Position numbers and translations under genes: made by a program. This document shows positions 22,872 through 63,574 of a stretch of 64,000 nt of DNA, one piece after another. Source of the stretch: a virus. Below the pieces are notes generated by a model. The model saw only the letters and a program-made list of their open reading frames with translations. It made no database searches and was not told the DNA's origin. Where the stretch lies: IMG/VR virus record IMGVR_UViG_3300044632_000653. One strand, given 5' to 3'. Each line of letters begins with the position of its first letter. The stretch's first letter is position 1.

Positions 22872-24092
22872 TCACAAGATGCAGTTGGCGAAGATGCTCG
22901 GCTTGGATTCAAAATTCACGGGAGTGGGGATGCTCAAGTTCTTGAGCCGAAGGTTGGTCTCAAAGGTCACCGACCTAGCCGAGTGGGCGAAGTCGCAGAG
23001 GATCTCATATCCAACCTGTGAACCCGTACCCGTGCGCCGTGAAGCCTTGGTCGCCGAATGGACCTTGACGATGTGACCGATATGCTCGTCATCATTTTCG
23101 CCGTTCGGATGCACGATGTAGCGCAGGTCAGCCATGCTGCCCCCACGCAGACCGAACTGCGGTGCCGCCTTCGGGTCGAAGGTAATAGCCTTGCTGAGGC
23201 TGGTAACCTTGATTCCGTCGCCGTCCTTCGGCACGGGTCCGTGCATCTGCCTTGTGCCTGAATTGATGAACATCCTGCGATTCGCTTGCACGATGCTTGT
23301 GTTGTTGCCGCCGCCTCGCTTGAAACGGGCTTCAGCCATTCCACCTGCGTCAGCCGTGACCTTGTCGATCCTCGGTGCAGCCAAGAGCGTCGGGGTCGGC
23401 ATGAACCAAGACTCAGGGAACGACGCACCGCCTACGAGAAGCGTTCCCATACCCTTGATCACAAGCATATGAGATCCGTGCATCGTGGAGTTCAGGGTGC
23501 GCCAGTACGCATCCGACTCGACGGGGAATTGCCACCTGATCGACTTATCGTCGTATGACTCGGCTTGGATCTCATTCGCCACCAACCGCAGGACGATCTT
23601 CCATATCTCGGGCACCGTGGTGAACGGGATCTTGTTGGTCATCAGTTCGGGAATGTACTGTGCATGCCGAGCGATGACCTTGTGGACACGGTTCATCACG
23701 GTCGGGGTGCCGAGGATTTCCTGTAGCGTGGCGCAGAAGACGGGATCTGTACCGCAGATGGGGACAGCCTTCTTCGACTGCGGACTGACGATCCACTCGG
23801 ACCCGTTGTAGTTCCAAGTCAGCGCACCGCCTTGCGACACGCCGTTCTTACATTCGATGTGCAGGGGTTGGTTCGGGTAGTCGGCATGGACCACCCTGAT
23901 GTCTGCCGAGGTGGACCCACCGATTGCTGAGGTAAAGGTGATCTTGTCACGCTTGTTCGGGGGTAGGCTCGACTGTAGGAGAGCCATCAAGTTCCGTTGG
24001 AACTCATGTCCCTTGGTGTCGATGTTCTTTTTCTTCCCCTCGGTCAGGTCTTGCAGGTCCTGTTCGTGGAGATGTGACAAAAAATCCTTCAT
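22872..24092 (-). CDS. PD-(D/E)XK nuclease-like protein with capsid-targeting-like leader
   Basis: N-terminus MKDFLSHLHE; SADIRV...LHIECK; TACATA late box 5 nt upstream. Confidence 0.55.
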   Translation of the reverse strand: MKDFLSHLHEQDLQDLTEGKKKNIDTKGHEFQRNLMALLQSSLPPNKRDKITFTSAIGGSTSADIRVVHADYPNQPLHIECKNGVSQGGALTWNYNGSEWIVSPQSKKAVPICGTDPVFCATLQEILGTPTVMNRVHKVIARHAQYIPELMTNKIPFTTVPEIWKIVLRLVANEIQAESYDDKSIRWQFPVESDAYWRTLNSTMHGSHMLVIKGMGTLLVGGASFPESWFMPTPTLLAAPRIDKVTADAGGMAEARFKRGGGNNTSIVQANRRMFINSGTRQMHGPVPKDGDGIKVTSLSKAITFDPKAAPQFGLRGGSMADLRYIVHPNGENDDEHIGHIVKVHSATKASRRTGTGSQVGYEILCDFAHSARSVTFETNLRLKNLSIPTPVNFESKPSIFANCIL

Positions 24093-24106
24093 GCAGGTAT
24101 GTATCG

Positions 24107-24418
24107 CTACATTTCGACACGCCTGTATCCGCAAGCCCACAGAAGATTGGCAATTTCAGTCGCAGAGCGGTTCACCATCTCCTCGGTTTCGTCGGGATAG
24201 ATCGCATGCAGGGCTTCATGGATGATCAGGTCCATGCGGTTCTTCCCCTCGACAGCCCTCCGCACTCTGATGGTCGGCTGCGGGTCCTCGGGATGACCGC
24301 AGTCTCCCCACCTGTCGGAAGGGATCTCACGGCTGCGCACGAACTTGATGTGCCACTCCTTCCCACCGAGTTTGGTGGTGAGGGCATTGGGGTCCTGCTT
24401 TTGCTTTCTTTTCGCCAC
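24107..24418 (-). CDS. Small HExxH zinc metallopeptidase-like protein
   Basis: WG.C, IRV, LIIHEALHA..P...EE.V. Confidence 0.7.
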   Translation of the reverse strand: MAKRKQKQDPNALTTKLGGKEWHIKFVRSREIPSDRWGDCGHPEDPQPTIRVRRAVEGKNRMDLIIHEALHAIYPDETEEMVNRSATEIANLLWACGYRRVEM

Positions 24419-24476
24419 GGCGTTATTTAGTGAAAAACGATGGACCGATAAGTAGTATAAAGGGAGGGCAGAAACG

Positions 24477-25868: not shown

Positions 25869-25889
25869 CAGAACATCAACAAAACAAAC

Positions 25890-25922
25890 GAACGAGAGGG
25901 GGAAACCCCTCTCGTTTCTTTT
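25890..25922. terminator. Bidirectional terminator
   Basis: AACGAGAGGGG-GAAA-CCCCTCTCGTT hairpin with flanking A and T runs between convergent genes. Confidence 0.75.
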
Positions 25923-25933
25923 ACTCATCTGAC

Positions 25934-26329
25934 TCACCCGAGGTATCTGATGCCGTGAGGAGTCAGCATCTCGGTGCCCTGCATGGCATCGAACAGGTTG
26001 CCACGGGCATGCTTGGCGGGACCCTTGTAGGACGCAGCCCGAAGCACATCCCCCGTTTGCTTGTCGATGAAGGCATACACCGACCGTGAGCCTCGACCTG
26101 CGTCACGGACGATGTCGATGCGGATGTAGCGGCGACCGTCAGACATCTCAAGTTGAGACGAGACGAGCGGGTGAAAGTTCTTGGCGTAGTCCTTGTTCAC
26201 GATGTCCTGTGCCGTCCACAGCCATCGGTCGAGGCGCAGGAGAGCGAGGGACTTGTCTCCCCATACAGCAGGGAGGTTCGTCTTGTGGGTCAGGAGATTG
26301 ACTGCGTTGGTGGCGTTCGTGGTGGTCAT
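25934..26329 (-). CDS. Conserved phage protein
   Basis: G.RYIRI...RSVYAFIDK.TGDVLRAASYK.PAKHARGN pattern seen widely in phages. Confidence 0.7.
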   Translation of the reverse strand: MTTTNATNAVNLLTHKTNLPAVWGDKSLALLRLDRWLWTAQDIVNKDYAKNFHPLVSSQLEMSDGRRYIRIDIVRDAGRGSRSVYAFIDKQTGDVLRAASYKGPAKHARGNLFDAMQGTEMLTPHGIRYLG

Positions 26330-32733: not shown

Positions 32734-33561
32734 ATGATGTCATTCAAGTCATACATCTCTCATATCCAAGAGGGTGCCCCGCTAGAGAAGTCGGGGTTCA
32801 CCCGCCTCAAGGGTCAACCCAAGAAGGCTGCTCGCAAACTCGCCTATGCCCTCAAGAAGGGCGACTACACCAAGGCAAACGAACGGTACACACGGAAGTC
32901 CGTGAGCCAAATGCGTAGGGTCGGGGACCAACTCGACCGTGCGACGAGGGACTTCAAGTCCCGCATGGGTCTCGCCGACGAGTCGGTGAAGGAATCCGTC
33001 AGCGAGGCTGCGAGGGGATTGGTCGGGTCGAAGAACAAGTGGTCGAGGATCGACTTGACGCAGACCAAGGGCAACACCGATGTCCAATCGGACATCTATG
33101 ACATGATCAAGCAGACCTATGCAGGTCTCGGCGGTCACCCCGACTTCCCTTCCCGTGACAGGGTCCCCCACGACAACGACGGGGTGGACATCATCGACAC
33201 GGACGGTCCCGATGACATCGATGCGACGATCCTGAGCAAGAAGACGATGTTCGGTCGCAAGATGACCACGATAGCGACAGACGGTCAGCAGGATTCCAAG
33301 AGGGCGATGCTCTCCAAGTCCGTCGAACTCCTACAGCAGAGGGGCAACTACATGGAAGCCTCGGGCAAGGTCCTTGAGATCCTGATCTCCAAGGGAGCCA
33401 AGCCTGTCACGGATCAGAAGACCGTGGAGAAGGTCCTCACGGGCAAGACGATCCATTGGCACGGCGACCACCCCGAGGGTCTCAAGGGTGAGGGTTGGTA
33501 TTCTCGCACCATCGGTGGTAAGATGCACACCAAGATGATGCTCGGAAACCCCATTCCGTAA
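32734..33561 (+). CDS. Putative internal head protein, two modules
   Basis: Leader MSFKSYISHIQE; linker DESVKESVSEA. Confidence 0.65.
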   Translation: MMSFKSYISHIQEGAPLEKSGFTRLKGQPKKAARKLAYALKKGDYTKANERYTRKSVSQMRRVGDQLDRATRDFKSRMGLADESVKESVSEAARGLVGSKNKWSRIDLTQTKGNTDVQSDIYDMIKQTYAGLGGHPDFPSRDRVPHDNDGVDIIDTDGPDDIDATILSKKTMFGRKMTTIATDGQQDSKRAMLSKSVELLQQRGNYMEASGKVLEILISKGAKPVTDQKTVEKVLTGKTIHWHGDHPEGLKGEGWYSRTIGGKMHTKMMLGNPIP

Positions 33562-33568
33562 ATACCTT

Positions 33569-34135
33569 ATGAAGACCTATTGGCAACTCATCCTTGAAGT
33601 GACCGCCGCCGTCAAGTCGAGGGTGGCGAAAGCGATTCCCTCCCTTGTCGTACCAAGGGAACCATATCCATGGTCAACCCCGCACAGCGGGTGGTGGCAT
33701 CCGACGAAGCCTCCCGTGAACTTTTCATGGGGAAGCGGGAACTACCACATCACGCAGGTGGTGAAGAACCCCTCGGCATTCGGCACTACCAAGGAAGAGA
33801 TCTACAAGATCCTCATGCCTGAGTACGGAAACGACGAGGAGATGGTCGCCGAGGTCTACAACAACCTCATGCTCGGGCTGCGAGACACCAATCGTCACAT
33901 CGAACGCCATGTCTTCAAGAAGGGGTGGGTGCGGGTGAAGGTCTTGGGGAACTTCAATCGAATCAGCGTCATGGTCGAGGGCATCTCGCCCTACACCAAC
34001 AGAGCCGCCGAGATCGTCGCCATCCATGCGTTCGCCACCGAGAACAAGGGTGGCAGGATGTCCCTGACCATCGCAGACACGGTGAAAACCTACGGCACAG
34101 CCGAAGACATTGAGCGTTACGGCAAGGGTCGATGA
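33569..34135 (+). CDS. Putative internal head protein
   Basis: TAAATA box; leader MKTYWQLILE; GW.RV motif. Confidence 0.65.
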   Translation: MKTYWQLILEVTAAVKSRVAKAIPSLVVPREPYPWSTPHSGWWHPTKPPVNFSWGSGNYHITQVVKNPSAFGTTKEEIYKILMPEYGNDEEMVAEVYNNLMLGLRDTNRHIERHVFKKGWVRVKVLGNFNRISVMVEGISPYTNRAAEIVAIHAFATENKGGRMSLTIADTVKTYGTAEDIERYGKGR

Positions 34136-44971: not shown

Positions 44972-45513
44972 GAACGGACGGGCATAGATAAGGTATCGAA
45001 AGGAACTCCAATGACCAACGAGAATCAAATCACCACCGCCACCATGCGGAACCTTGTCGAGGCTGCGAACGGGATCAACGAGGTCCACGGCGGCATCCTC
45101 CCCTCCAAGCCCAATCTTGAAACACGCTTCAAGGCTGCGATTGCTCATAGGAAAACCCTTGAGGATCTCGAAGCGAAGATGGAGTTGTCCATGCGGCGAC
45201 TGAAGGAGGAGATGATCAAACTTGAGAAGGCGAACAATTCCCTTCTCGTCCCTGTTTTGGACACACTTCGCAACAACGAAATTCTACCGAAGTCCATTTC
45301 CGTAGAGGCGCAGAGGCGAATCAAGGAGTGTCAGGCTGCTTGCAACGAAGTTCGCCTCGCTAGCGAGATGGTGGGTACCCATTTGTCCTCCATGAGCAAT
45401 ACTTGGAAGAAGTTGAACTGACGGGTATAGATAAGGTATCGAAAGGAACTCCAATGACCAACGAGAATCAAATCACCACCGCCACCATGCGGAACCTTGT
45501 CGAGGCTGCGAAC
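44972..45513 (+). repeat. 99-bp direct repeat (44972-45070 and 45415-45513): late box, RBS and first 20 codons
   Basis: The two copies differ at two positions; both encode MTNENQITTATMRNLVEAAN. Confidence 0.92.
45011..45421 (+). CDS. Putative internal head protein (coiled coil)
   Basis: Shared leader ...MRNLVEA. Confidence 0.65.
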   Translation: MTNENQITTATMRNLVEAANGINEVHGGILPSKPNLETRFKAAIAHRKTLEDLEAKMELSMRRLKEEMIKLEKANNSLLVPVLDTLRNNEILPKSISVEAQRRIKECQAACNEVRLASEMVGTHLSSMSNTWKKLN

Positions 45514-45939
45514 ATGATCGGCAACGGGATCGACGAAGACATGACCGAGGGACTTCGGACGGTAGCGAAGTTCTACACCATGCCACTCGGTTTGCAGGTC
45601 GAGTTCAGGTTCGACCCGTCCAAGCCCAAGGAGGTGATATCGGTATCGGGTGGAACGAGCCGCAAGGTGCCGACCGAGTTGGTATTGGGATGGATTGCCT
45701 CCTACAAGCACATCGATGACATGACGAGGACTGAACTCAACGGGGACAAGAGCCACTACGCTGTTCCCGACATGGACCACGGTCACTCGCCCGAGTTCGT
45801 CATCGGTCCTTACTGGAGCAAGTTGTTCCTCAACAGACAGGGAAAGACTTCGATAAAGCACACCTTCCCCGATGTGTATGTCTATCCCCATTGGCTGAAG
45901 CGGATCAGGGAACTGCTGACGGTCAAAAGACTTCCATGA
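45454..45939 (+). CDS. Putative internal head protein
   Basis: Shared leader; second linker IDEDMTEG. Confidence 0.65.
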   Translation: MTNENQITTATMRNLVEAANMIGNGIDEDMTEGLRTVAKFYTMPLGLQVEFRFDPSKPKEVISVSGGTSRKVPTELVLGWIASYKHIDDMTRTELNGDKSHYAVPDMDHGHSPEFVIGPYWSKLFLNRQGKTSIKHTFPDVYVYPHWLKRIRELLTVKRLP

Positions 45940-46376
45940 AGACCTTCGTCTCCTACATCTCCGAGAACGCCCCCGAGGGGGCACCGAAGCCCGAGCGCAA
46001 GATCGGCAAGGTCAAGTATTGGATGAACTTGACGGACAAGCAGGACGGCGAGGAGCCTTTTCGGGAGGTCGAGTACACCCGCAAGGTGAAGTCCGACACC
46101 GTGCCGAACGCCCATTGGTACTTCCTTGGTGACACCCCGATGTCGGGGATGACTAGGGGAGAGAGGCGTTACAGGGCGGCGGTCGTTTTGCTCATCGACA
46201 CCCATGGAATCTTCCTTGCTACGGTGAAGGAGGATGCCAAGATATCCAAGGGCAACTACGGCAGGTGGCAGTCGGGGGACTTTTGGACGGACAACTTCAC
46301 CGCCGCCAAGCGGCATGCCGAGGACCTCGCCCTTCGCCGACTACAGCGAGAACAGCAACCGAAGCCAAAGGCATGA
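45936..46376 (+). CDS. Putative internal head protein
   Basis: Leader MKTFVSYISE; ATGA coupling. Confidence 0.65.
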   Translation: MKTFVSYISENAPEGAPKPERKIGKVKYWMNLTDKQDGEEPFREVEYTRKVKSDTVPNAHWYFLGDTPMSGMTRGERRYRAAVVLLIDTHGIFLATVKEDAKISKGNYGRWQSGDFWTDNFTAAKRHAEDLALRRLQREQQPKPKA

Positions 46377-46756
46377 AGACCTTCGTCTCCTACATCTCCG
46401 AGGCTGCGAAGCCTAGTCGTACCGTGCCCTACCGTTGGAGTGCGACGGATACGCAGCATGCCATGAACTACACTCGGACGATGCCGTCATCCGTTCCGAA
46501 CGCCAAGTGGTATGTGGTCGATGGATCATACGACAAGGAGAAGAAGGACTACCGCCTCCTCCGTGACGGGGTGGTAATCGCTCATATCAGGTATCACCCG
46601 AGCGAAGGCGTGTGGCGATGGGAAACCATCCACAGCGCACCTAGAGGTGGATTGGGGATGGGTAGGCACGACAAGGGGAAGTATGTGTCTAGTAAGCCCC
46701 TCGCCCTTTCATTAGCGGAGAAGCAGATCATCGAAAGGGAGAGGACCGCAGGATGA
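46373..46756 (+). CDS. Putative internal head protein, paralog of 45936
   Basis: Identical 31-bp leader (MKTFVSYISE); YTR...VPNA.WY shared. Confidence 0.65.
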   Translation: MKTFVSYISEAAKPSRTVPYRWSATDTQHAMNYTRTMPSSVPNAKWYVVDGSYDKEKKDYRLLRDGVVIAHIRYHPSEGVWRWETIHSAPRGGLGMGRHDKGKYVSSKPLALSLAEKQIIERERTAG

Positions 46757-47145
46757 AGGACTTCCACGGATTCATCTCCGAGGCTCCCGTCTCGTACACC
46801 GCAGTCATGCTCGACCAACGGAGCCATGACCTTCTCATGTCGAGGATGCGTCCTCACATGCCCGAGGGATGGAAGGTGTACGCCCACCACATGACGATGC
46901 ACATGGGAGCGGCGAAGCCCGAGGACAGGGTCGGGCAGTCCGTGACCATCGTCGCAGACGCATGGGCGGCTGACGAGCGCACGGTCGCCGTGAGGGTCAC
47001 GGGTCACCCGAGCAGGAACAGGACCCCGCATGTGACCGTGGCTGTCAATGCCGCTGCGGGTGCGAAGCCCAAGGACAGCAACCTCCACACGGAATGGAAG
47101 CCGATGCCTCCGCTGAGGCTGACGGGCACCGTGGGAGAGGCTTGA
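46753..47145 (+). CDS. 2H phosphoesterase with capsid-targeting-like leader
   Basis: Two HxT motifs (HHMTM, PHVTV); leader MKDFHGFISE. Confidence 0.8.
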   Translation: MKDFHGFISEAPVSYTAVMLDQRSHDLLMSRMRPHMPEGWKVYAHHMTMHMGAAKPEDRVGQSVTIVADAWAADERTVAVRVTGHPSRNRTPHVTVAVNAAAGAKPKDSNLHTEWKPMPPLRLTGTVGEA

Positions 47146-48589: not shown

Positions 48590-48901
48590 GTGAGGTCGTT
48601 CAAGTCATACATCTCCGAGGGACCGTACTCGTTCAAGGACTTCAAGGATCCTTGGGCTGTCATGTCGCCCGAGGACCGCAAGGAAGCGAACCGCCTGTTC
48701 AAGGCGGCGATGAAGGCGTTCCCTTCCTCCATGCGGCAGAAGGAACTGCAAGCCAAGTTGTTCGCCCTCCTCGACAAGTATGGGATAGGGAAGACAAAGG
48801 TTGCCGAGGATTGGTCGAAAGAGTACAAGGCTTCGATCAACTGCAACAACCCCAAGGGCTTCTCGCAACGGGCGCATTGCCAAGGCAGGAAAAAGGGATG
48901 A
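48590..48901 (+). CDS. Putative internal head protein
   Basis: GTG start, leader RSFKSYISE; C-terminal WS..YK.SI.CNNPKGFSQRAHCQGRKK module known from T4-like phages. Confidence 0.7.
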   Translation: MRSFKSYISEGPYSFKDFKDPWAVMSPEDRKEANRLFKAAMKAFPSSMRQKELQAKLFALLDKYGIGKTKVAEDWSKEYKASINCNNPKGFSQRAHCQGRKKG

Positions 48902-50202
48902 AGTCATATCACGAACTCGTAATGTTCCTTGAGAACAGCGGTGTGATGAGGTTCACCGAGCGTGGACTCTCGTCCTATCTCAGTTCGGCAGAGCGCATGG
49001 TCAAGGATGCTCAGGCGAGGAGCGGAGACTTCGCACGGATGCAGGACGCACAGATCGCAGCAGTCCTCGGGCATCTCATATCCCATATCACCCGAATCGT
49101 GAACACCGTTCCGAAGGACACGGATCCGAAGGCAGTCGGCATCGCACGGAAACTCCTCTCGCTCGGCGGCAAGGCTGCGAGCGTCAAGAAGGCATTCGAT
49201 GACCTCAGCCGCAGCGGTGCGGCGATTGCTGCGAGGATGACCTCCGAACTGCAAGGCAAGTACGACATGCGGTTTGAGTCATATGATGGAGCGCATCCCT
49301 ACGAGATTGAGCGTGATCGGATCACCAAGGAAACAGTAGCCGCAGCAAAGGCAAGGGGATCGTCAAGGACGCAGGGAGAGAAACTTGCCAAGATAGAGAT
49401 AGAACGATGGAAGAAGGCAGAAGGCAAACACTTGTATTCCGACTTCACGAACCGACAATTTCGTGCAGCAACGGATCAGGAGAAACGAAACGAAGAGCGT
49501 GAAGCGCAAGCAAAGCAAGAAATCTCCCGAATGTTCTCTGATGCTGACAGGCTACTTGTAGCCGCAGGGTTCAAGTTGGAGCGTGGTCCTCAAGGCGGAA
49601 GCCAGTCACGCTATTACACCGATGGTAAAATCAAGGTCCGTATTTCGGACCACGAAGTTCCCATGACTGCGGAGCGTCAACACAACAGGACGGTCAGCGG
49701 CAGGAATCCATGGTTTGAATTCATATTTGGTGAACGAGATAGAGCAGGTGTCCTACGAGTGAATCCGAAGGAGTTGCAGCACTTGCGTGATTGGATTGGT
49801 GATCTGAAGGAAATGCGATCCGAATCCCACGACCCCAAGCACATTGACGAGACTGCCTACGGAGTGTTCTCCAACTACCTCGGTTCCTCCATGATGTCGT
49901 TCGTGCAGACGAAACAGCATGAGTTGGATCGCAGGACCGACAAACTCACGAAGGCTCTCGCCCGTGTGCATGCACAAGGGGCTGCGGGAGTCCAAAGGGA
50001 CCTCGGCTTGCCATTCGCACAGGTCAGCCTCGACGGGGTGGAGTTCCGTCCGCACAGGGGTGGCGTGAGGAAACTCCTCGTCCGATTCAACCCGAACGGG
50101 ACCCTCGGGATCAACGCCGATGGGAAGACGGTGGCGAACTCCGCAGCCCTGCGTGACATCGGTCCCCTCATGGCGAAGATCGTCGGCGGCGGATTCGCAT
50201 AA
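48898..50202 (+). CDS. Putative modular internal head polyprotein
   Basis: Leader MKSYHELVMFLE; linkers FESYD, SESHDPKHIDE; S.SRY..KVRISDH module. Confidence 0.65.
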   Translation: MKSYHELVMFLENSGVMRFTERGLSSYLSSAERMVKDAQARSGDFARMQDAQIAAVLGHLISHITRIVNTVPKDTDPKAVGIARKLLSLGGKAASVKKAFDDLSRSGAAIAARMTSELQGKYDMRFESYDGAHPYEIERDRITKETVAAAKARGSSRTQGEKLAKIEIERWKKAEGKHLYSDFTNRQFRAATDQEKRNEEREAQAKQEISRMFSDADRLLVAAGFKLERGPQGGSQSRYYTDGKIKVRISDHEVPMTAERQHNRTVSGRNPWFEFIFGERDRAGVLRVNPKELQHLRDWIGDLKEMRSESHDPKHIDETAYGVFSNYLGSSMMSFVQTKQHELDRRTDKLTKALARVHAQGAAGVQRDLGLPFAQVSLDGVEFRPHRGGVRKLLVRFNPNGTLGINADGKTVANSAALRDIGPLMAKIVGGGFA

Positions 50203-50278: not shown

Positions 50279-50959
50279 ATGAACAAGACTTTCATGCGTA
50301 ACCTTGCCGAGAACATCGCCCTCAACTCTCTTCGCCACGGCGGTCTCCTGCCGAAGCATCAGGTCATCGTGGACCGTCAGGACTCGGACCCATCCACGGT
50401 CCTCGGCAAATGGGACGGGAAGATTCCGTTCGGTCCACCTGCACCAAACGCAAGTGTGGAGACCGTCATGGAACTCAACCACATCGTTGAAGGTCAGACA
50501 CTCGCATCGAAGGAAGAGATCGAATTCAGTCTCTCTATCGACAAGCCGAGGAACCACTACGAATGGTGGAGCAGGGAGGTCGAGTCCCTCACGGGCAGGA
50601 GGCACTCACCCGACAGGCTCTACATGATCGCCGACATGGCTGAGGGATTCCTCCTGCGGCTGAAGGCGCACTTCGACCGACCGAGACCGTATCAACTCGG
50701 TCCCCACCTCGGGAAGCGCATCCACATGTTCCTGCCCGACCCGAGGACACCTTCGTATCCATCGGGTCACTCGTTCGACGCATACCTGATCGCACTCACA
50801 CTCAGCGACGAGCATCCCGAGCATCACGAACGCCTCTTTGAACTCGCCGACACAGTCGGGGTTACGAGGATCATCGGGGGAGTCCACTACTCCTCCGACA
50901 TCACGGCGGGTCGCAACGCCGCCATCATCGCACACCGCATCATCAAGGGAATGAAATGA
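50279..50959 (+). CDS. PAP2-family phosphatase
   Basis: K.HFDRPRP, SYPSGH, R..GGVHY.SD motifs. Confidence 0.85.
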   Translation: MNKTFMRNLAENIALNSLRHGGLLPKHQVIVDRQDSDPSTVLGKWDGKIPFGPPAPNASVETVMELNHIVEGQTLASKEEIEFSLSIDKPRNHYEWWSREVESLTGRRHSPDRLYMIADMAEGFLLRLKAHFDRPRPYQLGPHLGKRIHMFLPDPRTPSYPSGHSFDAYLIALTLSDEHPEHHERLFELADTVGVTRIIGGVHYSSDITAGRNAAIIAHRIIKGMK

Positions 50960-51491: not shown

Positions 51492-51758
51492 ATGTACATC
51501 GACCGCAGGACATTGAGGCAGTTGGTTGAGTCGGCGAACGGCATCGGCGACACATCCACACGACAGATCACCGAGGGCTATGAGAAGAAGATCATCTCTT
51601 ACCTTGAGGATGGGGGCTTCAAGAAGGGCGACGCATGGTTCGACATGGGAACCCTTTATGTGAGCAGCAAGGGCTTGGTCGAAAAGGCGAAGACCATCCT
51701 CAAGAAGAAGAGGGACATTTTTGAGTTGCCGAAGATCGTCGTGGACAAGACCTCGTAA
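51492..51758 (+). CDS. Putative internal head protein
   Basis: TAAATA box; leader TLRQLVES...QITE. Confidence 0.6.
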   Translation: MYIDRRTLRQLVESANGIGDTSTRQITEGYEKKIISYLEDGGFKKGDAWFDMGTLYVSSKGLVEKAKTILKKKRDIFELPKIVVDKTS

Positions 51759-51770: not shown

Positions 51771-52088
51771 ATGAAGAACTACCGTGAGTTCATCACCGAG
51801 ACCTTCGATTCCTTCAAGGTGTTCAAGCACAAGGCGAACGCCAACGAGGAGGATTCCGAGTACGGCATCAGGGCTCTGATCCGATACACCCATGTTCTTC
51901 CCTCGGGTGAGAAGACGGTCATCACCTCTCTCTTTCCTCCGATCCAACTGAGGACAACGGACAACAAATACCAGTTCAATCGCCATCTCAACGCAATGGT
52001 TGCGAGTCTCAAGGCTGAAGGCAGGGAGATCCTCGGCATCCACATGAGAGGTGATCCACTCTACGACAGGCTTATGAAAAGGGGGTAA
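51771..52088 (+). CDS. Putative internal head protein
   Basis: Leader MKNYREFITE, close to the T4 CTS MKTYQEFIAE. Confidence 0.7.
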   Translation: MKNYREFITETFDSFKVFKHKANANEEDSEYGIRALIRYTHVLPSGEKTVITSLFPPIQLRTTDNKYQFNRHLNAMVASLKAEGREILGIHMRGDPLYDRLMKRG

Positions 52089-57242: not shown

Positions 57243-59540
57243 ATGATGAATGACATTCAGCGCAGGATCCTCGCAGAAGCGATCAAGTACGGCGGCAGCA
57301 ACATCTCGGTCCCCGAGCAGATGGCGAAGATGATCAACGAGTCTCCCGTCCTCACGGGCGGCGAGGCTGCACCCACGCTGTTCGGATGGGGCAAGCATCA
57401 GTTTGAAGCCAAGTTCCGTGAACTCCTGACGAGGATGGGGTTTGAGCGAGGCATCATCCACATGAAGACCGAGGGTCAGGAGATGAAGATGTACTTCGCC
57501 AACGCTGCGAAGGCTCGGGACTTCGTGGTCGCTTTCAATGGTCTTGCCCGTCGCAAGAGCATGGGATCGGTCGCATCGGTCGCCACGCAGTTCAACAAGA
57601 TCAAGGTACCCACGGGGACCAACGCCATCGTCAGCCTCGACCTCACGATGATCCGTGGCGAGTCGCTCGACATCGAAGGCACCGACCTCTACGAGTGGTT
57701 CACAGGCGACAGCATCACCGAGGAGCCTCTCAACGAAGGCGGCGTGAAGGCTGCGCTTGAGGACTTCATGTATTCGCTGCCCAAGGCTGCGATTGCCGAA
57801 ATCAAGCCGTTGATGACGGGCAAGCGTGGTCCTGTCGAGCATGCCATGCGACTCGCTTCGATCACGGCGATTCTGAACAAGCACGGCGTTGCCAAGAAAC
57901 TGATGGGGTACAACACCGCCAATCTCGTCAGCGATTACTTCAACACCTTCCATGGCGAGTCCGTCAAGGAAGAAGTTGAAGTCCAAGAGGAGTACTACTC
58001 TAGGGCAATCAATGAACCCCAATTCATACCCGCAAAGCATCTCTATGAATCGTTTTTCAAAACCCTCAAGGATGAGAAACTACCATTCGATAAAGGACAA
58101 GCAGAAAAATCCCTTGAGTATGTGTTTGCCTTGTCATTGAATGTCAAGTCTAACTGGAGCAAGTACATCAAGAATCAGGGAGACTTGATCCGTGAGGCGA
58201 TGACTCACTACATGAAGGCGATGCGGGTGGGTGGAGTGATTGAGCAACTGTCCGAACAGCAACAGGTCATCGGCAAGTATCGCTTCACATCGTTCACCGA
58301 AGGCAGCATCAGCGGATGGCTGATCAGCGTACAGGGCATCGGTGAGGTCGGCTTTATCCAAGCACCCGCCAAGAGGAACAGCAAGACTACTGTTGCTCCA
58401 CACAGGGTGTACAAGACCAAGGGACAGTCGGAAGGCGATCCCAAGTTGGTGCTGACTGCATATCCCGATAGCGGCACAAGACTTGTGGGTGGACTTGTAG
58501 ACAACAAGGAGATTCGTTTCGCTCCCCGTCAACTCCTCAAGGCTGTCGCCATGTGGATGGACAAGCATGGCAAGACGATGACCGAAGAAGTTGAGATCAC
58601 AGAGTCTCAGGATTTCCTATTGGAACTGAGTGCCGACGATCCCGACATTGAGAAGGCAGACAGAGATCTTAGAGAGAGGGAACTGTCACAAATTGGGCAG
58701 TTCATTCGGAGTCTGCCCAAGAATGCGATTCGTGAACTCAGAAAACATTGTCATGTTTATGGCAGTAGTTATTCGGGTGAATATACACGCCCACCAAATA
58801 AACTCAAAGCCATCAACTCTATTCTCAAGAAGTATGGAATTCCCCAAGAGGTAGTGTTGGATCCTAAATTTCCCCGTATCAAAGACCGAGTTGACAAACT
58901 TGTTTACGATCATTTGGATAGGGTGAGACCCGCAACCTTCCGTGTCATGGGCGGTGCTGAGACAATGATTCGTAACGATATTGCAAATGGGGCAATATCA
59001 ATGTCGGGATCAAATTGGCAAAGCGTTTTTGATGATGGGGCAAATCAGGAACATTCGGGCCATTTCATTGTTCTCACCAAGAACTACAAGAACAAGTATT
59101 CTCCTAGAGATACTATTAGTGTCGATTGGAAAACAGAGGAGATGCTTGCCCGTGAACTACGAAGACTTCCAAATGCAAAGATGCCCGAAATAAAACTTGG
59201 TGCCAAGACAACTTGGTCGGCTCCATCGGTTGGTGGGGGTGGCACCCCCATGGGTGGGGGTGGCGAGATGACCATTATCGCCATAAAGGAACAGGTCGAG
59301 ATGGTGAGCGAGTACCACCGCCGTGGCGGCTACCGCTCGACCTCGTACTCGGGCGACCCCCGTTGGATTACCGCCAAGTATGCGGGTAGGGACTCGCACG
59401 GCAAGCCTTTCAAGGCGGGTGAAAGGGTCCTGTACTTCCCGAACGGCAAGAAGTTCTACACGGGAGCGGAGGCAGAAAAGGCGTGGCTTGAGTTCCTCTC
59501 TGCCAAGGGCGACGAAGAAGGCATGCCGTTCGCCCGTTGA
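57243..59540 (+). CDS. Large modular internal head polyprotein (putative)
   Basis: TAAATA box; leader RRILAE; many acidic linkers; internal repeat F..SLPK.AI.E. Confidence 0.7.
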   Translation: MMNDIQRRILAEAIKYGGSNISVPEQMAKMINESPVLTGGEAAPTLFGWGKHQFEAKFRELLTRMGFERGIIHMKTEGQEMKMYFANAAKARDFVVAFNGLARRKSMGSVASVATQFNKIKVPTGTNAIVSLDLTMIRGESLDIEGTDLYEWFTGDSITEEPLNEGGVKAALEDFMYSLPKAAIAEIKPLMTGKRGPVEHAMRLASITAILNKHGVAKKLMGYNTANLVSDYFNTFHGESVKEEVEVQEEYYSRAINEPQFIPAKHLYESFFKTLKDEKLPFDKGQAEKSLEYVFALSLNVKSNWSKYIKNQGDLIREAMTHYMKAMRVGGVIEQLSEQQQVIGKYRFTSFTEGSISGWLISVQGIGEVGFIQAPAKRNSKTTVAPHRVYKTKGQSEGDPKLVLTAYPDSGTRLVGGLVDNKEIRFAPRQLLKAVAMWMDKHGKTMTEEVEITESQDFLLELSADDPDIEKADRDLRERELSQIGQFIRSLPKNAIRELRKHCHVYGSSYSGEYTRPPNKLKAINSILKKYGIPQEVVLDPKFPRIKDRVDKLVYDHLDRVRPATFRVMGGAETMIRNDIANGAISMSGSNWQSVFDDGANQEHSGHFIVLTKNYKNKYSPRDTISVDWKTEEMLARELRRLPNAKMPEIKLGAKTTWSAPSVGGGGTPMGGGGEMTIIAIKEQVEMVSEYHRRGGYRSTSYSGDPRWITAKYAGRDSHGKPFKAGERVLYFPNGKKFYTGAEAEKAWLEFLSAKGDEEGMPFAR

Positions 59541-60663: not shown

Positions 60664-60762
60664 ACCAAAACCCCGCCCCGCAAGGGTGGGTTAGCCTTGG
60701 CAAGGACAGGGAGGGAGCCTTCGGGTTCCCTCCCTTGTCTTTTGGAAACCATAAATACTCAT

Positions 60763-61059
60763 GTGAAGACCTTCAGCGAGTACATCATGGAGACCAACAC
60801 CACGGCAAACCTGATCTATGCGGGGACGGACTTTGCCGTCGATGATGTCGGGGGAGACTTCGATGTCGAGGACTACGAATCCGAAGACCCCGAGGACCGC
60901 AAGAAGATGAAACCGTGGGAAGTGGAGAACGCCGAGGAAGCGAACCGCCGCAGGAACCACATCCTGCAGTGGCTGAAGGCAGCGGGGGCAAATCAATCCA
61001 AGGCGGTGACCGACAAGAGTTTGCCGCTCACACCCGAATGGCAGTCGAGGACACGATGA
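60763..61059 (+). CDS. Putative internal head protein
   Basis: TAAATA 5 nt before GTG; leader KTFSEYIME. Confidence 0.65.
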   Translation: MKTFSEYIMETNTTANLIYAGTDFAVDDVGGDFDVEDYESEDPEDRKKMKPWEVENAEEANRRRNHILQWLKAAGANQSKAVTDKSLPLTPEWQSRTR

Positions 61060-62000
61060 AGTCTTACCAGCATTTCATAAACGATCTCAACGAGATGAAG
61101 AACATAGGTGACGGCGACTGCATGGTGGTCGCCGCACAGATGTTGGTCTATCAGTCGTTCGGACCACACGCCGACATCGTGAACAAGGACTCCGTTCTCG
61201 TCCATGCCCTCGTCAGGGGTCAAGGCAAGGCGAAGGGTCTCCGATTCGCCCACGCATGGGTCGAGACGGGTGACACGGTTTACGACTACAGCAACGGCAA
61301 CAAGATAGCGATGCCGAAGGATGTCTACTACGCCATCGGCGGGGTGAAGGCCAAGCAGAAGGGTGCCTACTTCACATACACGCTGAAGGAAGCGAAGAAG
61401 AAGTTGCTCTCGACGGGTCACTACGGTCCTTGGGATCTTGACGAAAGCCTTGAGGAGAACAAGATCTCGGATCCCCGAGGGATCGGTCGGAAGAGGCTGC
61501 GGCTGTCCCCGAAGATGACCGATTTCCTCAAGACGAAGTTGACCGAGGCGATCATCACGGGTCGCCCGACCACGGGCATGCGCACGGGCGGGGGTGTGCG
61601 CTCCCTCGCACCCGCACAGCCGCAGGAGCATTCGTTCGTGTCGTGGAACGATCTCAAGCGGCTTGAGTCCATGCTTGATGCGCTCTTCGCACAGGCGGGT
61701 CTCGACATCGCCTTCACCAAGCACTTCTGGGAACGAATCAATGGAAGCCGTGGCTACGGTGGTACGGTTTCGATCCCCGAGTTGCAGGATGCCTTCCGCA
61801 AGACCTTCTCCAAGTACGCACAGCAGATCAAGGGGAAGTCGGTGAATTGGAAGGCAATCATCCTCGACATCGGCAAGGACCACCTCAACATGCCCTTCGT
61901 CCTCAATTGGAGCCCACAGGAGAAGGAGATGTCCATCGTCGCCCTCACGGCGATGAAGAAGCGCAACTTCATGGCATCCGAGCCCAAACTCCCCGTCTGA
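61056..62000 (+). CDS. Putative modular internal head protein
   Basis: Leader MKSYQHFINDLNE; GDC..HAWVE..D module (C-H-D papain/transglutaminase-like), then DI.FTKHF.ER.N module. Confidence 0.65.
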   Translation: MKSYQHFINDLNEMKNIGDGDCMVVAAQMLVYQSFGPHADIVNKDSVLVHALVRGQGKAKGLRFAHAWVETGDTVYDYSNGNKIAMPKDVYYAIGGVKAKQKGAYFTYTLKEAKKKLLSTGHYGPWDLDESLEENKISDPRGIGRKRLRLSPKMTDFLKTKLTEAIITGRPTTGMRTGGGVRSLAPAQPQEHSFVSWNDLKRLESMLDALFAQAGLDIAFTKHFWERINGSRGYGGTVSIPELQDAFRKTFSKYAQQIKGKSVNWKAIILDIGKDHLNMPFVLNWSPQEKEMSIVALTAMKKRNFMASEPKLPV

Positions 62001-62185
62001 ACCATGGAAGACCGAATCATCAACCGAGGGAAGGATTGGTTCGCCTTTACGAAGAGCATGGCTGACTACATGGTGAAGCCCATCCCGAGGAAGTTGCGGG
62101 GAGAGCCGAAGACCAAGGGAATCGCCAACGACACCCGACAGGCGCAGCACTCACCGACGAAGAATACGACAAGGATGCGACTCTA

Positions 62186-63574
62186 ATGAAAACCTACTTC
62201 GACCTACGACAGGACCTACGACAGCAGAACCCCGATCAAGCCGAACTCATCGCCGAGCAGTTGAACCGCTACCTTGAGGAGAAGGCACTCGTCCTCGGGA
62301 AGGGCGAGAACTACGGACAGGCGGTCATCCTTGCGGGTGGTGCGGGATCGGGCAAGTCTTTCGCCGTCAGCAACTTCATGCAGGGGGAGAAGTTCAAGGT
62401 GTTCAATGTGGACTCACTCAAGGACACCCTGCTCTCCATCAGGGATCGTTTGAAGCGAGTCCCTGACATGCAACTCTCGGGAGGTATCAAGAGCGTCGTG
62501 CAAGCGATCCAAGACCTCAACCTGAGGAAGCCAAAGGATGTGGGCACCCTTCACATGATAGCGAAGAAGTTGGGTGGCAGGGGTCCAAATGACTCCACGA
62601 TGATTGGCAGGGTCGTTGGCAAGGTCGATGACACCAACTTCCACAAGCAGGAGGACATCCTCTCGCTGAAGGAACTGATCAAGGACTTCAATGTCGATCA
62701 GAAGAATCAGATCATGTTCTTCGCCGACAAGACCAAGAGCGTCAAGCCGAATGTGATGTTCGATGTGACGCTCAAGGACATCGGTGCGCTGCATAGTGAA
62801 CTCGGTGGAGAGTTCGGCATCATCCAACTCCTCAAGATGGCGGGATATGCACCCGAGAACATCCACATCGTTTGGATCCTCACGGACTACCGCATCGCCA
62901 TGCGGCAGAACCTCACCCGCAGTCGTGTCGTGGCATCGGACATCTTCTTCGCCACGCACCTCGGCGCAAGCGGAACCATGCGGGACATCGTCTTCAAGAA
63001 CTACTCAAGCCTCGGGATCAACGGCGATATCGCCGTCATCCTCGGAGGCGGCAAGGGACAAGTCGAGTTTGAGGTTGGCAAGTCCTATGGACCCGATACG
63101 AAGTCCACCGAGGGGACTCCTCTCCTCAAGGGCGGTCTCAAGGGGAAGTCGTTCACCGTGACCTCTGCGAACAAGTTGACGCTTCCTGTGTTCATCGACT
63201 TCCGCTACTACAGGCTGAAGAAGGCAGGTGACCGTTCGATCAACCGAGAGGCTCTTCAGTCGATCCACGATGCGATCAGCAAGATGGCACCGAGCGGGAA
63301 GACGGGTGCGGCGGCTGCACAGGCGCAGGTCGTGCGGAAAATAATGAGCGACTTCAACGGGGCGCAGAAACTGATCTTGCAGATGCTCCAGCGAGGTGTC
63401 TCGGTCGAGCAGATCAAGAGCGAGTACAGGAGGAAGTTCCCTCCCCTCAAGCCGATCCACCCCGAGACGGCTGCTGCACTCGGTCTCTCCGAACTTGAGT
63501 ACAAGCCCGTACTCGACCAACGGGTGGCTGACATCCTCGGTTTGAAGGTCGGGGAGTACAAGTTGAGGAGTTGA
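62186..63574 (+). CDS. P-loop kinase (zeta-toxin/AAA_33-like) with leader peptide
   Basis: VILAGGAGSGKS, FNVD, FD.T, N..R.R.V; leader MKTYFDL..YLEE. Confidence 0.7.
   Translation: MKTYFDLRQDLRQQNPDQAELIAEQLNRYLEEKALVLGKGENYGQAVILAGGAGSGKSFAVSNFMQGEKFKVFNVDSLKDTLLSIRDRLKRVPDMQLSGGIKSVVQAIQDLNLRKPKDVGTLHMIAKKLGGRGPNDSTMIGRVVGKVDDTNFHKQEDILSLKELIKDFNVDQKNQIMFFADKTKSVKPNVMFDVTLKDIGALHSELGGEFGIIQLLKMAGYAPENIHIVWILTDYRIAMRQNLTRSRVVASDIFFATHLGASGTMRDIVFKNYSSLGINGDIAVILGGGKGQVEFEVGKSYGPDTKSTEGTPLLKGGLKGKSFTVTSANKLTLPVFIDFRYYRLKKAGDRSINREALQSIHDAISKMAPSGKTGAAAAQAQVVRKIMSDFNGAQKLILQMLQRGVSVEQIKSEYRRKFPPLKPIHPETAAALGLSELEYKPVLDQRVADILGLKVGEYKLRS

What the first reader, a model, noticed from the sequence alone, without database searches (positions are those of the whole stretch)
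22872..63574. Large family of late proteins with T4-type capsid-targeting leaders: an injected cargo arsenal
Seen leaders: MKDFLSHLHE (24092-), MSFKSYISHIQE (32737), MKTYWQLILE (33569), MKTFVSYISE x2 (45936, 46373), MKDFHGFISE (46753), RSFKSYISE (48590), MKSYHELVMFLE (48898), MKNYREFITE (51771), KTFSEYIME (60763), MKSYQHFINDLNE (61056), MKTYFDL (62186). A second class reads MR.L(V/A)E (45011, 45454, 50279, 51492, 57243). Established: T4 internal proteins use MKTYQEFIAE, removed by gp21 after (L/I)xE. Inference: 15 or more unrelated cargos, including nuclease, phosphoesterase, phosphatase and kinase folds, are packaged and delivered with the DNA, far more than T4's few.
Basis: partly seen in the sequence, partly recalled or inferred. 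Interest (0 to 1): 0.82.

Follow-up and report, generated by a model that had tools for sequence, protein, structure and literature searches.

The report
Expanded T4-type capsid-targeting leader family
An uncultured T4-like phage puts the same 10-residue "pack me into the head" tag that T4 uses for its three internal proteins onto at least 13 unrelated late proteins, several with enzyme motifs or folds, so it probably injects a large protein toolkit with its DNA; this is an enlarged version of a known system, not a new one.

Summary
Every listed N-terminus translates as stated. The core motif directly follows a start codon 11 times out of 30 six-frame hits, against 1.6 expected (P=1.5e-7).

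I count 13 class-1 leaders, M-[KR]-x-[FY]-x-x-[FYHL]-[ILV]-x-E. They match T4's MKTYQEFIAE at the positions shown experimentally to drive targeting (4, 7) and cleavage (8, 10). The PAP2 phosphatase belongs to class 1, not class 2.

Supporting evidence:
- The window encodes T4-type gp21 protease, gp22 scaffold and gp23.
- Leader genes sit in operons headed by a late-type element also found before the sheath, tube, gp21, gp22 and gp23 genes.
- The sigma70-driven early block has no leader genes, apart from one with its own late element.
- Mature bodies are mutually unrelated, and 15 of 17 are basic.
- Relatives keep the key positions and swap cargo bodies exactly at the leader.

Predicted cargos include a zeta-toxin-like kinase, a class A acid phosphatase, a 2H phosphoesterase, a papain-like plus RegB/RelE-like protein whose domains occur in polyvalent proteins, and a possible PD-(D/E)xK nuclease.

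Class 2 (4 genes) is plausible but weaker. Packaging, cleavage and injection are inferred, not shown. The principle has been known in T-even phages since 1994. Other readers in this scan noted the same family on overlapping windows.

The parts
22872..24092 (-). Class-1 leader gene, 406 aa, MKDFLSHLHE|Q. It is the only leader gene inside the minus-strand early block. Possible PD-(D/E)xK nuclease.
   Evidence: Translation. TACATA element 5 nt before the ATG. Six closer homologues carry the leader and five distant ones (43-52% identity) lack it; D64 and E80-C-K82 are invariant. AF2 pLDDT 58 and fold search inconclusive.
32734..33561 (+). Class-1 variant, 275 aa, MMSFKSYISHIQE|G (3-residue insertion before IQE).
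   Evidence: No family hit. Predicted mature pI 9.6.
33569..34135 (+). Class-1 leader gene, 188 aa, MKTYWQLILE|V.
   Evidence: TAAATA 4 nt before the ATG. An orthologue with MKTYWQLLAE is in IMG/VR locus L139.
45011..45421 (+). Class-2 leader gene, 136 aa, MTNENQITTATMRNLVE|AAN.
   Evidence: Shares an exact cassette of about 100 bp (late element, RBS and 20 codons) with 45454, after which the bodies diverge.
45454..45939 (+). Class-2 leader gene, 161 aa, with the same 20-codon leader cassette as 45011.
45936..46376 (+). Class-1 leader gene, 146 aa, MKTFVSYISE|N.
   Evidence: ATGA overlap with the upstream stop. G002 orthologue 69% identical with an identical leader.
46373..46756 (+). Class-1 leader gene, 127 aa, MKTFVSYISE|A.
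   Evidence: In G002 this body sits behind the promoter and leader of 48590, with the crossover inside the leader.
46753..47145 (+). Class-1 leader gene, 130 aa, MKDFHGFISE|A. 2H-phosphoesterase-like.
   Evidence: Pfam tRNA_lig_CPD E=9e-5, just below the cut-off. phrog_36523 aligns to residues 15-111 only. Two HxTx motifs, H46MTM and H93VTV.
48590..48901 (+). Class-1 leader gene, 103 aa, GTG start, (M)RSFKSYISE|G.
   Evidence: TACATA 6 nt upstream. G002 and G001 carry ATG at the same position.
48898..50202 (+). Class-1 variant, 434 aa, MKSYHELVMFLE|N (12-residue leader).
   Evidence: G001 orthologue reads VKSYHELALLLE. Few homologues.
50279..50959 (+). Class-1 variant, 226 aa, M-N-KTFMRNLAE|N. 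Soluble class A acid phosphatase (PAP2).
   Evidence: PF01569 at 43.4 bits against a 27.2 cut-off. PDB 7f17 E=2.9e-19, aligned to residues 53-216 only. Motifs Kx6RP, PSGH and TRx5Hx3D present, no TM segment.
51492..51758 (+). Class-2 leader gene, 88 aa, MYIDRRTLRQLVE|SANGIGD.
   Evidence: Terminator then TAAATA upstream. Shares RxLVE[AS]ANGI with 45011 and 45454.
51771..52088 (+). Class-1 leader gene, 105 aa, MKNYREFITE|T (7 of 10 residues identical to T4 MKTYQEFIAE).
   Evidence: phrog_2667 'internal head protein' matches residues 1-31. G001 orthologue reads MKSYKDYISE.
57243..59540 (+). Class-2 candidate, 765 aa, MMNDIQRRILAE|AIK.
   Evidence: N-terminus conserved in G001 and G002. Resembles T4 gp22 MLKEQLIAE|A and gp67 MEGLIE|AIK. 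Terminator plus TAAATA upstream, conserved in both relatives. No family hit.
60763..61059 (+). Class-1 leader gene, 98 aa, GTG start, (M)KTFSEYIME|T.
   Evidence: Terminator then TAAATA 5 nt before the GTG. G001 orthologue reads ATG MKSFKQYIHE.
61056..62000 (+). Class-1 variant, 314 aa, MKSYQHFINDLNE|M. Papain/transglutaminase-like N-domain plus RegB/RelE-like (BECR-type) C-domain.
   Evidence: 2462 HMMER hits, and both domains recur inside polyvalent proteins that carry ART-PolyVal. AF2 pLDDT 83. VIA: T4 RegB Z 6.6 (rmsd 5.5, 118 aligned), RelE Z 5.9, C8orf32 Z 5.5.
62186..63574 (+). Class-1 variant with a split leader, 462 aa, MKTYFDL...LIAE / YLEE|K. Zeta-toxin-like P-loop kinase.
   Evidence: 116 homologues, nearly all starting MK[TS][FY], many carrying PF06414. 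Walker A GGAGSGKS. RB16 homologue starts MKSFKDFVSLDE.
10679..11323 (+). T4 gp21-type prohead protease, the presumed leader peptidase.
   Evidence: phrog_207 E=4.7e-76. N-terminus MKLICE resembles T4 gp21 LLIE.
11369..12463 (+). gp22-type scaffolding core protein, the presumed docking target of the leaders.
   Evidence: phrog_237 E=2e-70.
12516..13877 (+). gp23-type major capsid protein, with an N-terminal ...WQPILE|H site aligned with T4's ...WKPLLE|G.
   Evidence: phrog_138 E=1.7e-162. Sequences.
8409..9860 (+). Gene between portal and protease, 483 aa, with four D-I-Q-E sites about 110 aa apart. Probably a core polyprotein cut by gp21.
   Evidence: The same IQE appears in the 32734 leader.

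Best explanation
The window comes from an uncultured T4-like myophage (57% GC; capsid protein 90% identical to a 168-kb IMG/VR genome). At least 13 late genes carry a T4-type capsid-targeting sequence (CTS).

Proposed mechanism:
1. The proteins are made late from operons headed by a TA[ACG][AG]TA element.
2. Their first ~10 residues (M-K/R-x-F/Y-x-x-aromatic/H/L-I/L/V-x-E) dock them onto the gp22 scaffolding core while the prohead assembles.
3. The gp21-type protease cuts after [I/L/V]-x-E. The mostly basic mature proteins stay with the DNA and are ejected into the next host.

Predicted cargos are a zeta-toxin-like kinase, a class A acid phosphatase, a 2H phosphoesterase, a papain-like plus RegB/RelE-like two-domain protein, a possible PD-(D/E)xK nuclease and many small proteins of unknown function. 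These would act before any phage gene is expressed, in host takeover or counter-defence.

The leader also serves as a recombination joint, so cargo bodies are exchanged between relatives as cassettes.

Four further genes carry a different N-terminal R-x-[LI]-[VA]-E module that looks like the propeptides of T4 gp22 and gp67 and may be processed the same way.

Shown: the motif, its enrichment, the machinery genes, promoter context, modularity and domain identities. Inferred: docking, cleavage, retention, ejection and function.
For: - Motif enriched at start codons in the window and two relatives.
- Conserved positions 4, 7, 8 and 10 are those mapped in T4 for targeting and processing (PMC9026906). 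Variable positions change at both codon and residue level.
- gp21, gp22 and gp23 are present. IQE, ILE and LICE sites occur in the core polyprotein, capsid protein and protease.
- phrog_2667 'internal head protein' hits the leader of 51771.
- The late-type element occurs 28 times on the + strand and 5 on the - strand. It lies before the sheath, tube, gp21, gp22 and gp23 genes and before the leader operons, and is conserved at orthologous sites in G001 and G002.
- All 10 sigma70-like promoters in 16-36 kb are on the minus strand. That block has no leader gene except 24092, which has its own late element.
- The one sigma70-type promoter on the + strand (54724) heads a block without leaders.
- Bodies are unrelated. 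15 of 17 mature pI values are 8.8-9.9, against 36% of other ORFs above 8.5 (Mann-Whitney P=0.001).
- Modularity: distant homologues of 24092 lack the leader; acid phosphatase similarity starts at residue 53; the G002 gene at 57840 is the 48590 leader joined to the 46373 body, with the crossover in TACATCTCCGAGG; a 100-bp leader cassette is duplicated.
- The c61056 domains occur in polyvalent proteins, which are predicted to be virion-packaged (PMC5512222).
- The leader is widespread: 116 kinase homologues, and 56 IMG/VR loci, several with 2-5 leader ORFs.
Against: - There is no direct evidence that any of these proteins is in a virion, is cleaved or is injected.
- No expression data exist. The late element is a degenerate 6-mer, only modestly enriched overall (33 found vs 20.5 expected), and its role is inferred from position.
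- Five class-1 members deviate from the 10-mer through insertions, F at P3 in 48898, or D at position 10 in 61056.
- The closest cultured relative, Stenotrophomonas phage DLP6, has no strict-pattern hit, so the system is not universal in this branch.
- Two cargos are not basic (pI 4.7 and 6.7).
- The fold matches for 61056 are middling (Z 5.5-6.6) and those for 24092 are inconclusive.
- The PSSM scan is partly circular.
Confidence: 0.72

Rival explanations
1. The leaders do target proteins to the prohead core, but many of these proteins are assembly or scaffold components, like T4 gp67, gp68 and gp22. They would be degraded to peptides during maturation and not delivered as functional effectors.
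For: The same protease degrades core proteins in T4. Class-2 N-termini resemble T4 gp22 and gp67 propeptides. The gene at 8409-9860 looks like a core polyprotein. Most small cargos have no recognisable function.
Against: Several cargos have intact catalytic motifs (PAP2, 2H, Walker A) or effector-type domains shared with polyvalent proteins. They are variable and swapped between close relatives, unlike essential core proteins. Basic pI matches the retained T4 internal proteins.
Confidence: 0.12
2. The shared start is a nucleic-acid-level signal with no protein-targeting role. It could be a translation-initiation or leaderless-mRNA signal, or a homology patch for cassette recombination.
For: Several leader genes have the late element 4-6 nt before the start codon and no Shine-Dalgarno sequence. 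The crossover between the window and G002 lies in the leader DNA. A 100-bp promoter-leader cassette is duplicated exactly.
Against: Conservation is at the residue level. Positions 4, 7, 8 and 10 are kept while codons and the other residues vary. The motif also occurs on genes with a normal RBS or with translational coupling. The same peptide is experimentally sufficient for encapsidation in T4 (PMC9026906). It is kept across GC contents of 36-70%.
Confidence: 0.05
3. The 'second class' (45011, 45454, 51492, 57243) is not a targeting or cleavage signal. It is a shared N-terminal helix of a small paralogous group plus a chance resemblance.
For: R.[LI][VA]E was defined after seeing the data. In G001 only the 57243 orthologue shows it clearly. 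[LI]xE is a common tripeptide. Three of the four share more than the motif (LVE[AS]ANGI), which suggests common descent of the N-terminal segment.
Against: 5 of 16 six-frame occurrences in the window lie within 13 residues of a true start (one is the PAP2 leader reclassified to class 1), against an expectation of about 0.2, my own estimate from sequence fractions. The 45011/45454 cassette ends just after LVE-AAN and is followed by unrelated bodies. All four follow a late element and have pI 8.8-9.3. They are similar to T4 gp22 and gp67 propeptides.
Confidence: 0.45

Closest known systems
T4 internal proteins IPI, IPII, IPIII and their capsid targeting sequence (Mullaney & Black 1996; reviewed in PMC9026906, PMC3012670)
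   Same: An N-terminal 10-residue tag of the MKTYQEFIAE type, with aromatic residues at 4 and 7, I/L at 8 and E at 10. A gp21-type protease and gp22 core are encoded nearby. Mature proteins are basic and the bodies are unrelated to each other.
   Different: At least 13 tagged genes lie in 64 kb, against 3 known (plus gp61.1 by pattern) in all of T4. Cargos reach 48 kDa, or 84 kDa counting class 2, and several carry enzyme motifs. T4's Ip1-3 are small GmrSD inhibitors (PMC12373910). The genes are spread over several late operons and not confined to one or two loci. The late promoter is not TATAAATA.
Polymorphic IP locus of T-even phages (Repoila et al. 1994, as cited in PMC3012670 and PMC12373910)
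   Same: Diverse ORFs share only the leader, and cargo bodies are exchanged between close relatives. Here the crossover lies inside the leader.
   Different: This is a distant, high-GC environmental lineage, not Tevenvirinae. One genome holds more tagged genes than the 'at least 10' reported across all T-evens together.
Polyvalent proteins of phages and conjugative elements (Iyer et al. 2017, PMC5512222)
   Same: Effector-type domains are predicted to travel with the DNA. The two domains of 61056 recur inside polyvalent proteins next to ART-PolyVal and GNAT. The relatives' 1200-aa tagged polyprotein carries DUF3140.
   Different: Here the domains are mostly separate small genes, each with its own CTS, not fused into one giant polypeptide. 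Processing would be by the head protease, not by an embedded peptidase.
T4 Alt, and the ejection proteins of phiKZ/SPN3US-type giant phages (PMC5694885, PMC7411985)
   Same: Enzymes or large proteins are packaged in the head, trimmed by a gp21-related protease after Glu, and ejected.
   Different: Alt and the giant-phage proteins do not use the MKxF/Y CTS. Targeting there depends on other propeptides.

Membership tests
T4-type CTS / internal-protein system | N-terminal ~10-residue leader with aromatic residues at positions 4 and 7 (targeting determinants in T4) | tested here: met
   F or Y at position 4 in all 13. Position 7 is F/Y in 8, H in 1, L in 3 and N in 1. Rule taken from PMC9026906.
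T4-type CTS / internal-protein system | Processing site with I/L at position 8 and E at position 10 ((L/I)-x-E) | tested here: met
   Exact in 8 genes. Displaced by 1-3 residue insertions, or a longer spacer, in 5 genes (32734, 48898, 50279, 61056, 62186). 48898 has F at P3.
T4-type CTS / internal-protein system | gp21-family prohead protease and gp22 scaffolding core in the same genome | tested here: met
   phrog_207 E=4.7e-76 and phrog_237 E=2e-70.
T4-type CTS / internal-protein system | Late expression together with head genes | tested here: inconclusive
   The TA[ACG][AG]TA element is shared with structural genes and heads the leader operons. Early sigma70-like promoters are on the other strand.
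T4-type CTS / internal-protein system | Leader shared by otherwise unrelated proteins (portable module) | tested here: met
   All-vs-all BLASTP of mature parts. Leaderless distant homologues exist. Leader/body chimera in G002.
T4-type CTS / internal-protein system | Physical presence in the virion, removal of the leader, and ejection into the host | not testable with these tools
   Needs virion mass spectrometry or fusion experiments.
PAP2 / class A non-specific acid phosphatase (gene 50279) | Pfam PF01569 above the gathering score, and the three signature motifs | tested here: met
   43.4 bits vs 27.2. PDB 7f17 E=2.9e-19. Kx6RP, PSGH and TRx5Hx3D present.
Zeta-toxin-like P-loop kinase, PF06414 (gene 62186) | Pfam match and Walker A motif | tested here: inconclusive
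   The query itself gives no Pfam hit at E<=0.01. Homologues at 28-38% identity carry PF06414. Walker A GGAGSGKS present. No PDB sequence hit.
2H phosphoesterase (gene 46753) | Two H-x-T/S-x motifs on a ~2H fold | tested here: inconclusive
   HMTM at 46 and HVTV at 93. Pfam tRNA_lig_CPD 22.4 bits vs cut-off 23. No structure model made.
Polyvalent-protein domain repertoire (gene 61056) | Domains that recur in multidomain phage or plasmid proteins alongside ART-PolyVal and similar domains | tested here: met
   HMMER hits lie inside 600-1700 aa proteins. 3 of 9 sampled carry ART-PolyVal plus GNAT or DUF3140.
BECR-fold RNase (RegB/RelE-like), C-domain of 61056 | Fold match clearly above background, and catalytic residues | tested here: inconclusive
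   VIA gives T4 RegB Z 6.6 (rmsd 5.5, 118 aligned) and RelE Z 5.9 (rmsd 3.2, 77 aligned). The tool notes that Z under 8 may be a common arrangement. Foldseek found nothing at E<=0.001. Catalytic residues not examined.
PD-(D/E)xK nuclease (gene 24092) | D...(D/E)-x-K motif on an alpha-beta-beta-beta-alpha-beta core | tested here: inconclusive
   Invariant D64 and E80-C-K82. Model pLDDT 58. Best Z 4.4, with a few restriction enzymes among noise.

The most novel reading that the evidence does not exclude
The MKx[FY] leader is a readable address label that defines a large 'injectome' across uncultured T4-like phages. It would cover hundreds of unrelated families, including enzymes and the same effector domains that other phages fuse into polyvalent proteins. 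Here each is tagged separately and shuffled between genomes by recombination within the leader. Mining N-termini for this tag would then list, from sequence alone, which phage proteins enter the cell with the DNA.
Probability: 0.45. Interest if true: 0.72.

Novelty: new variant of a known kind. Interest (0 to 1): 0.6.

Why it matters
Which phage proteins enter the cell with the DNA is hard to learn without proteomics, and such proteins act before any phage gene is expressed. In T4 all three are inhibitors of type IV restriction enzymes (PMC12373910).

If the tag works here as in T4, this lineage delivers a far larger and more enzymatic toolkit: a kinase, phosphatases, a putative RNase or peptidase, and perhaps a nuclease. 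The tag is short, conserved from 36% to 70% GC, and found in dozens of IMG/VR loci. It therefore gives a cheap sequence-only way to list candidate injected effectors and anti-defence proteins in uncultured phages.

It also links the T4 internal-protein system to the polyvalent-protein repertoire, and shows the leader acting as the joint for cassette exchange.

Tried and rejected
- Canonical T4 late promoter TATAAATA: 0 matches. Replaced by the degenerate TA[ACG][AG]TA seen before the structural genes.
- Whole genome of the window: not held. I used G001 (168 kb, 75% nt identity) and G002 (62 kb, about 95% identity), which overlap or extend the window.
- Pfam, PHROGs and NCBIfam on the cargos: mostly empty.
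- ESM Atlas on 24092 and 57243: nothing usable.
- PDB sequence search on 62186 and 46753: nothing.
- Foldseek on the 61056 model: no match at E<=0.001.
- AF2 of 24092 from 12 sequences: pLDDT 58, and the fold search was inconclusive.
- Homologues of 48898: only 4.
I obtained no genomic context for the leaderless homologues and no read or transcript evidence.
- Signal-peptide reading of the leaders was rejected: they are short, charged and not hydrophobic. True signal peptides occur on neighbouring genes 47217 and 59692.
- Common-descent reading was rejected: the bodies are unrelated.

Full report
**What the window is.** It is a 57% GC stretch of a T4-like myophage.
- Positions 1-16 kb (+ strand) hold the terminase, sheath, tube, portal, four small ORFs, gp21 protease (10679-11323), gp22 scaffold (11369-12463) and gp23 capsid protein (12516-13877).
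- The nearest cultured phage is Stenotrophomonas phage DLP6, at only about 70% nt identity over patches.
- No whole genome is held. Two IMG/VR relatives were fetched. G001 is 168,426 bp, 93% complete, about 75% nt identity, with a capsid protein 90% identical. G002 is 61,692 bp, about 95% identical to window 45.9-64 kb, and continues beyond the window.

**Observation.**
- A six-frame regex for the 10-mer ending in E gives 13 hits, 8 of them immediately after a start codon.
- For the looser 7-residue core, 11 of 30 hits follow a start codon, against 1.55 expected (P=1.5e-7). G002 gives 10 of 23 and G001 gives 11 of 56.
- Starts are precise. Six use ATGA or TAATG coupling to the upstream stop. 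The two GTG starts have ATG orthologues at the same codon.
- I count 13 class-1 genes. Eight are canonical: 24092(-), 33569, 45936, 46373, 46753, 48590, 51771 and 60763.
- Five carry small insertions: 32734 (MMSFKSYIS-HIQ-E), 48898 (12-mer), 50279 (M-N-KTFMRNLAE), 61056 (D at 10, then LNE) and 62186 (MKTYFDL...YLEE).

**Match to the T4 CTS.**
- T4's IPII and IPIII begin MKTYQEFIAE. Truncation and suppressor work placed targeting at residues 4 and 7 and processing at 8 and 10; an Asp at 10 blocks processing but not targeting (PMC9026906).
- Across 19 leaders from the window and its relatives, exactly these positions are fixed (F/Y4, F/Y/H/L7, I/L/V8, E10). Positions 3, 5, 6 and 9 vary at both the residue and codon level. 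That argues for selection on the peptide, not the DNA.
- phrog_2667 'internal head protein' matches only residues 1-31 of gene 51771.
- Likely protease sites of the same type occur in the capsid protein (WQPILE|H, aligned with T4 WKPLLE|G), in the protease itself (MKLICE) and four times as D-I-Q-E, about 110 aa apart, in the 483-aa gene between portal and protease.

**Late versus early.**
- TATAAATA is absent.
- The structural genes are instead preceded by TA[ACG][AG]TA (CTAAATAC, ATACATAA/C, CATAAGTA). This element occurs 28 times on the + strand and 5 times on the - strand. The total is 33, against 20.5 expected.
- It lies before the sheath, tube, gp21, gp22 and gp23 genes. It also lies before the first gene of each leader operon (24103-, 32303, 33559, 44985, 45428, 48578, 51461, 57212, 60752), often just after a strong terminator.
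- The element is kept at orthologous sites in G001 and G002.
- In 16-36 kb all ten sigma70-like promoters are on the minus strand, five of them as TTGACA-N17-TATCTT. That early block has no leader gene except 24092, which has its own TACATA 5 nt before the ATG.
- In 44-64 kb, the single early-type promoter on the + strand (54724) heads a 2.5-kb block whose genes lack leaders.
- The stated refuting condition, that the motif is equally common in early genes, is therefore not met. Timing is still inferred from sequence context only.

**Portability of the leader.**
- With the leaders removed, the 17 bodies show no significant pairwise similarity, except 45936 vs 46373 (E=0.004).
- For 24092, the six closest homologues start MKDFLSHLHEQD, while five homologues at 43-52% identity start directly at the conserved body.
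- The acid-phosphatase similarity of 50279 begins at residue 53.
- Between the window and G002, which are about 95% identical elsewhere, cargo bodies have moved. The G002 gene at 57840 has the upstream region and leader of window gene 48590, then switches to the body of window gene 46373. The crossover lies inside TACATCTCCGAGG.
- G002 also has a 318-aa ORF in which a new N-terminal domain is fused in frame to the 46753 body through an internal ENFHAFINE leader remnant.
- This repeats, in a distant lineage, what Repoila et al. (1994) described for the T-even IP locus (cited in PMC3012670 and PMC12373910).

**An independent property.** Predicted mature proteins are basic. 15 of 17 have pI 8.8-9.9, while only 36% of the other 59 called ORFs exceed 8.5 (Mann-Whitney P=0.001). 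T4 internal proteins contact the packaged DNA through lysines (PMC3012670).

**Cargo identities.**
- 50279 is a soluble class A acid phosphatase: PF01569 above its cut-off, PDB 7f17 E=2.9e-19, all three motifs present and no TM segment.
- 62186 has a Walker A motif. It belongs to a family of 116 proteins, nearly all starting MK[TS][FY], many carrying PF06414 (zeta toxin). Members occur in cultured RB16-, KP15- and Aeromonas-type phages, and the RB16 protein starts MKSFKDFVSLDE.
- 46753 has two HxTx motifs and a near-threshold 2H/CPD hit.
- 61056 has two domains with 2462 HMMER relatives, many inside 600-1700 aa proteins that also carry ART-PolyVal, GNAT or DUF3140. These are the polyvalent proteins of Iyer et al. 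2017 (PMC5512222).
- The 61056 AF2 model (pLDDT 83) gives a papain/transglutaminase-like N-domain (Z 4.5-5.5). The C-domain is nearest to T4 RegB (Z 6.6) and RelE-type toxins (Z 5.9). These scores are middling, so this is a lead only.
- 24092 has an invariant D...E-C-K motif, but its model was too poor to confirm a nuclease fold.
- The remaining cargos are unknown.
- In the relatives, the tag also sits on an NT5C nucleotidase, an AAA_33 kinase and a 1200-aa polyprotein made of a cytidylyltransferase-like domain, a RimK ATP-grasp domain and a Zn_protease domain.

**Class 2.**
- 45011 and 45454 share an exact ~100-bp cassette of late element, RBS and 20 codons (MTNENQITTATMRNLVEAAN), followed by unrelated bodies. 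51492 shares RxLVE[AS]ANGI with them.
- 57243 (MMNDIQRRILAE|AIK) is conserved in both relatives. It resembles T4 gp22 (MLKEQLIAE|A) and gp67 (MEGLIE|AIK).
- 5 of 16 six-frame R.[LI][VA]E hits lie within 13 residues of a real start. The pattern was chosen after the fact, however, and G001 supports it only for the 57243 orthologue.
- I rate processing of this class at about even odds.

**Scale and spread.**
- One relaxed DNA pattern finds, in all of T4, only IPII, IPIII, gp61.1 (MKTFKEFIKE) and one probable chance hit.
- The same pattern finds none in DLP6, 4 weak hits in KVP40, 2 in cyanophage S-B68 and 5 in G001.
- With variants included, G001 has about 14 tagged genes. All are on the structural-gene strand, mostly at 143-166 kb next to cobS, as in the window.
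- An exact high-GC-codon pattern finds 56 IMG/VR loci with GC from 24 to 70%; those with a confirmed leader ORF span 36-70%. Several hold 2-5 tagged ORFs within about 10 kb.
- The expansion is real relative to T4, but it is not unique to this genome.

**What is known.** The literature already describes a conserved CTS on diverse internal proteins, at least 10 Ips across the T-evens, and Ip1-3 as specific GmrSD inhibitors (PMC3012670, PMC9026906, PMC12373910). I found no paper in the held library describing a double-digit, enzyme-rich repertoire in one non-T-even genome, or linking the CTS to polyvalent-protein domains. The library is incomplete, so this is not proof of absence.

**Verdict.** This is an enlarged variant of a known system, and packaging, cleavage and ejection remain to be shown.

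Noticed in passing
window 47217-48548 and 52092-53162: Inside the cargo block, a secreted protein with a Pfam Cohesin domain (E=1e-5) and a 356-aa protein ending in a Dockerin_1 domain (E=3.6e-9). This would be a phage-encoded cohesin-dockerin pair. Neither carries a leader.
   Followed up: no
window 13939-13952, 15206-15219, 24090-24103(-), 33559-33571, 48578-48592, 60752-60765: The late-type element ends only 4-6 nt before the start codon, with no Shine-Dalgarno sequence, and twice the start is GTG. If transcription starts where it does at T4 late promoters, these would be leaderless or nearly leaderless mRNAs.
   Followed up: partly
window 8409-9860: A 483-aa gene between portal and protease has four D-I-Q-E sites about 110 residues apart (at 13, 112, 224, 334). 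It looks like a repeat polyprotein cut by the head protease. An internal ATG at 8628 gives MKNAKWYINQ.
   Followed up: partly
L095 (T4 NC_000866) 18966-19130, minus strand: T4 gp61.1, a 54-aa hypothetical protein in an early region, starts MKTFKEFIKE. That is a near-perfect CTS.
   Followed up: no
window 16000-32000, minus strand: Early promoters share an unusual -10 hexamer: TTGACA-N17-TATCTT occurs at 31565, 30993, 27487 and 17445 (and TTGACT at 22860). All ten sigma70-like hits are on the minus strand.
   Followed up: no
window 44975-45075 and 45418-45518: An exact direct repeat of about 100 bp, comprising the late element TAGATAAGG, an RBS and the first 20 codons, heads two genes with unrelated bodies.
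   Followed up: yes
L001:1451-2407 (G002 60242-59286): A 318-aa ORF fuses a new tagged N-domain in frame to the 2H-phosphoesterase body through an internal ENFHAFINE. This suggests that tagged genes can merge into polyproteins whose internal leader remnant serves as a cleavage site.
   Followed up: partly
window 39394-41943(-) and 42591-43859(+): A divergent CobT-like (phrog_459) and CobS-like (phrog_249) pair sits at the switch between the early and late-cargo blocks. The same cobS flanks the cargo block in G001.
   Followed up: no
G001 about 143680-143740 and 164220-164280 (L089, L090): GGTTCGAACCC-type stretches, which look like tRNA T-arms, lie just upstream of two tagged genes in the relative. 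tRNA genes may be interleaved with the cargo operons.
   Followed up: no
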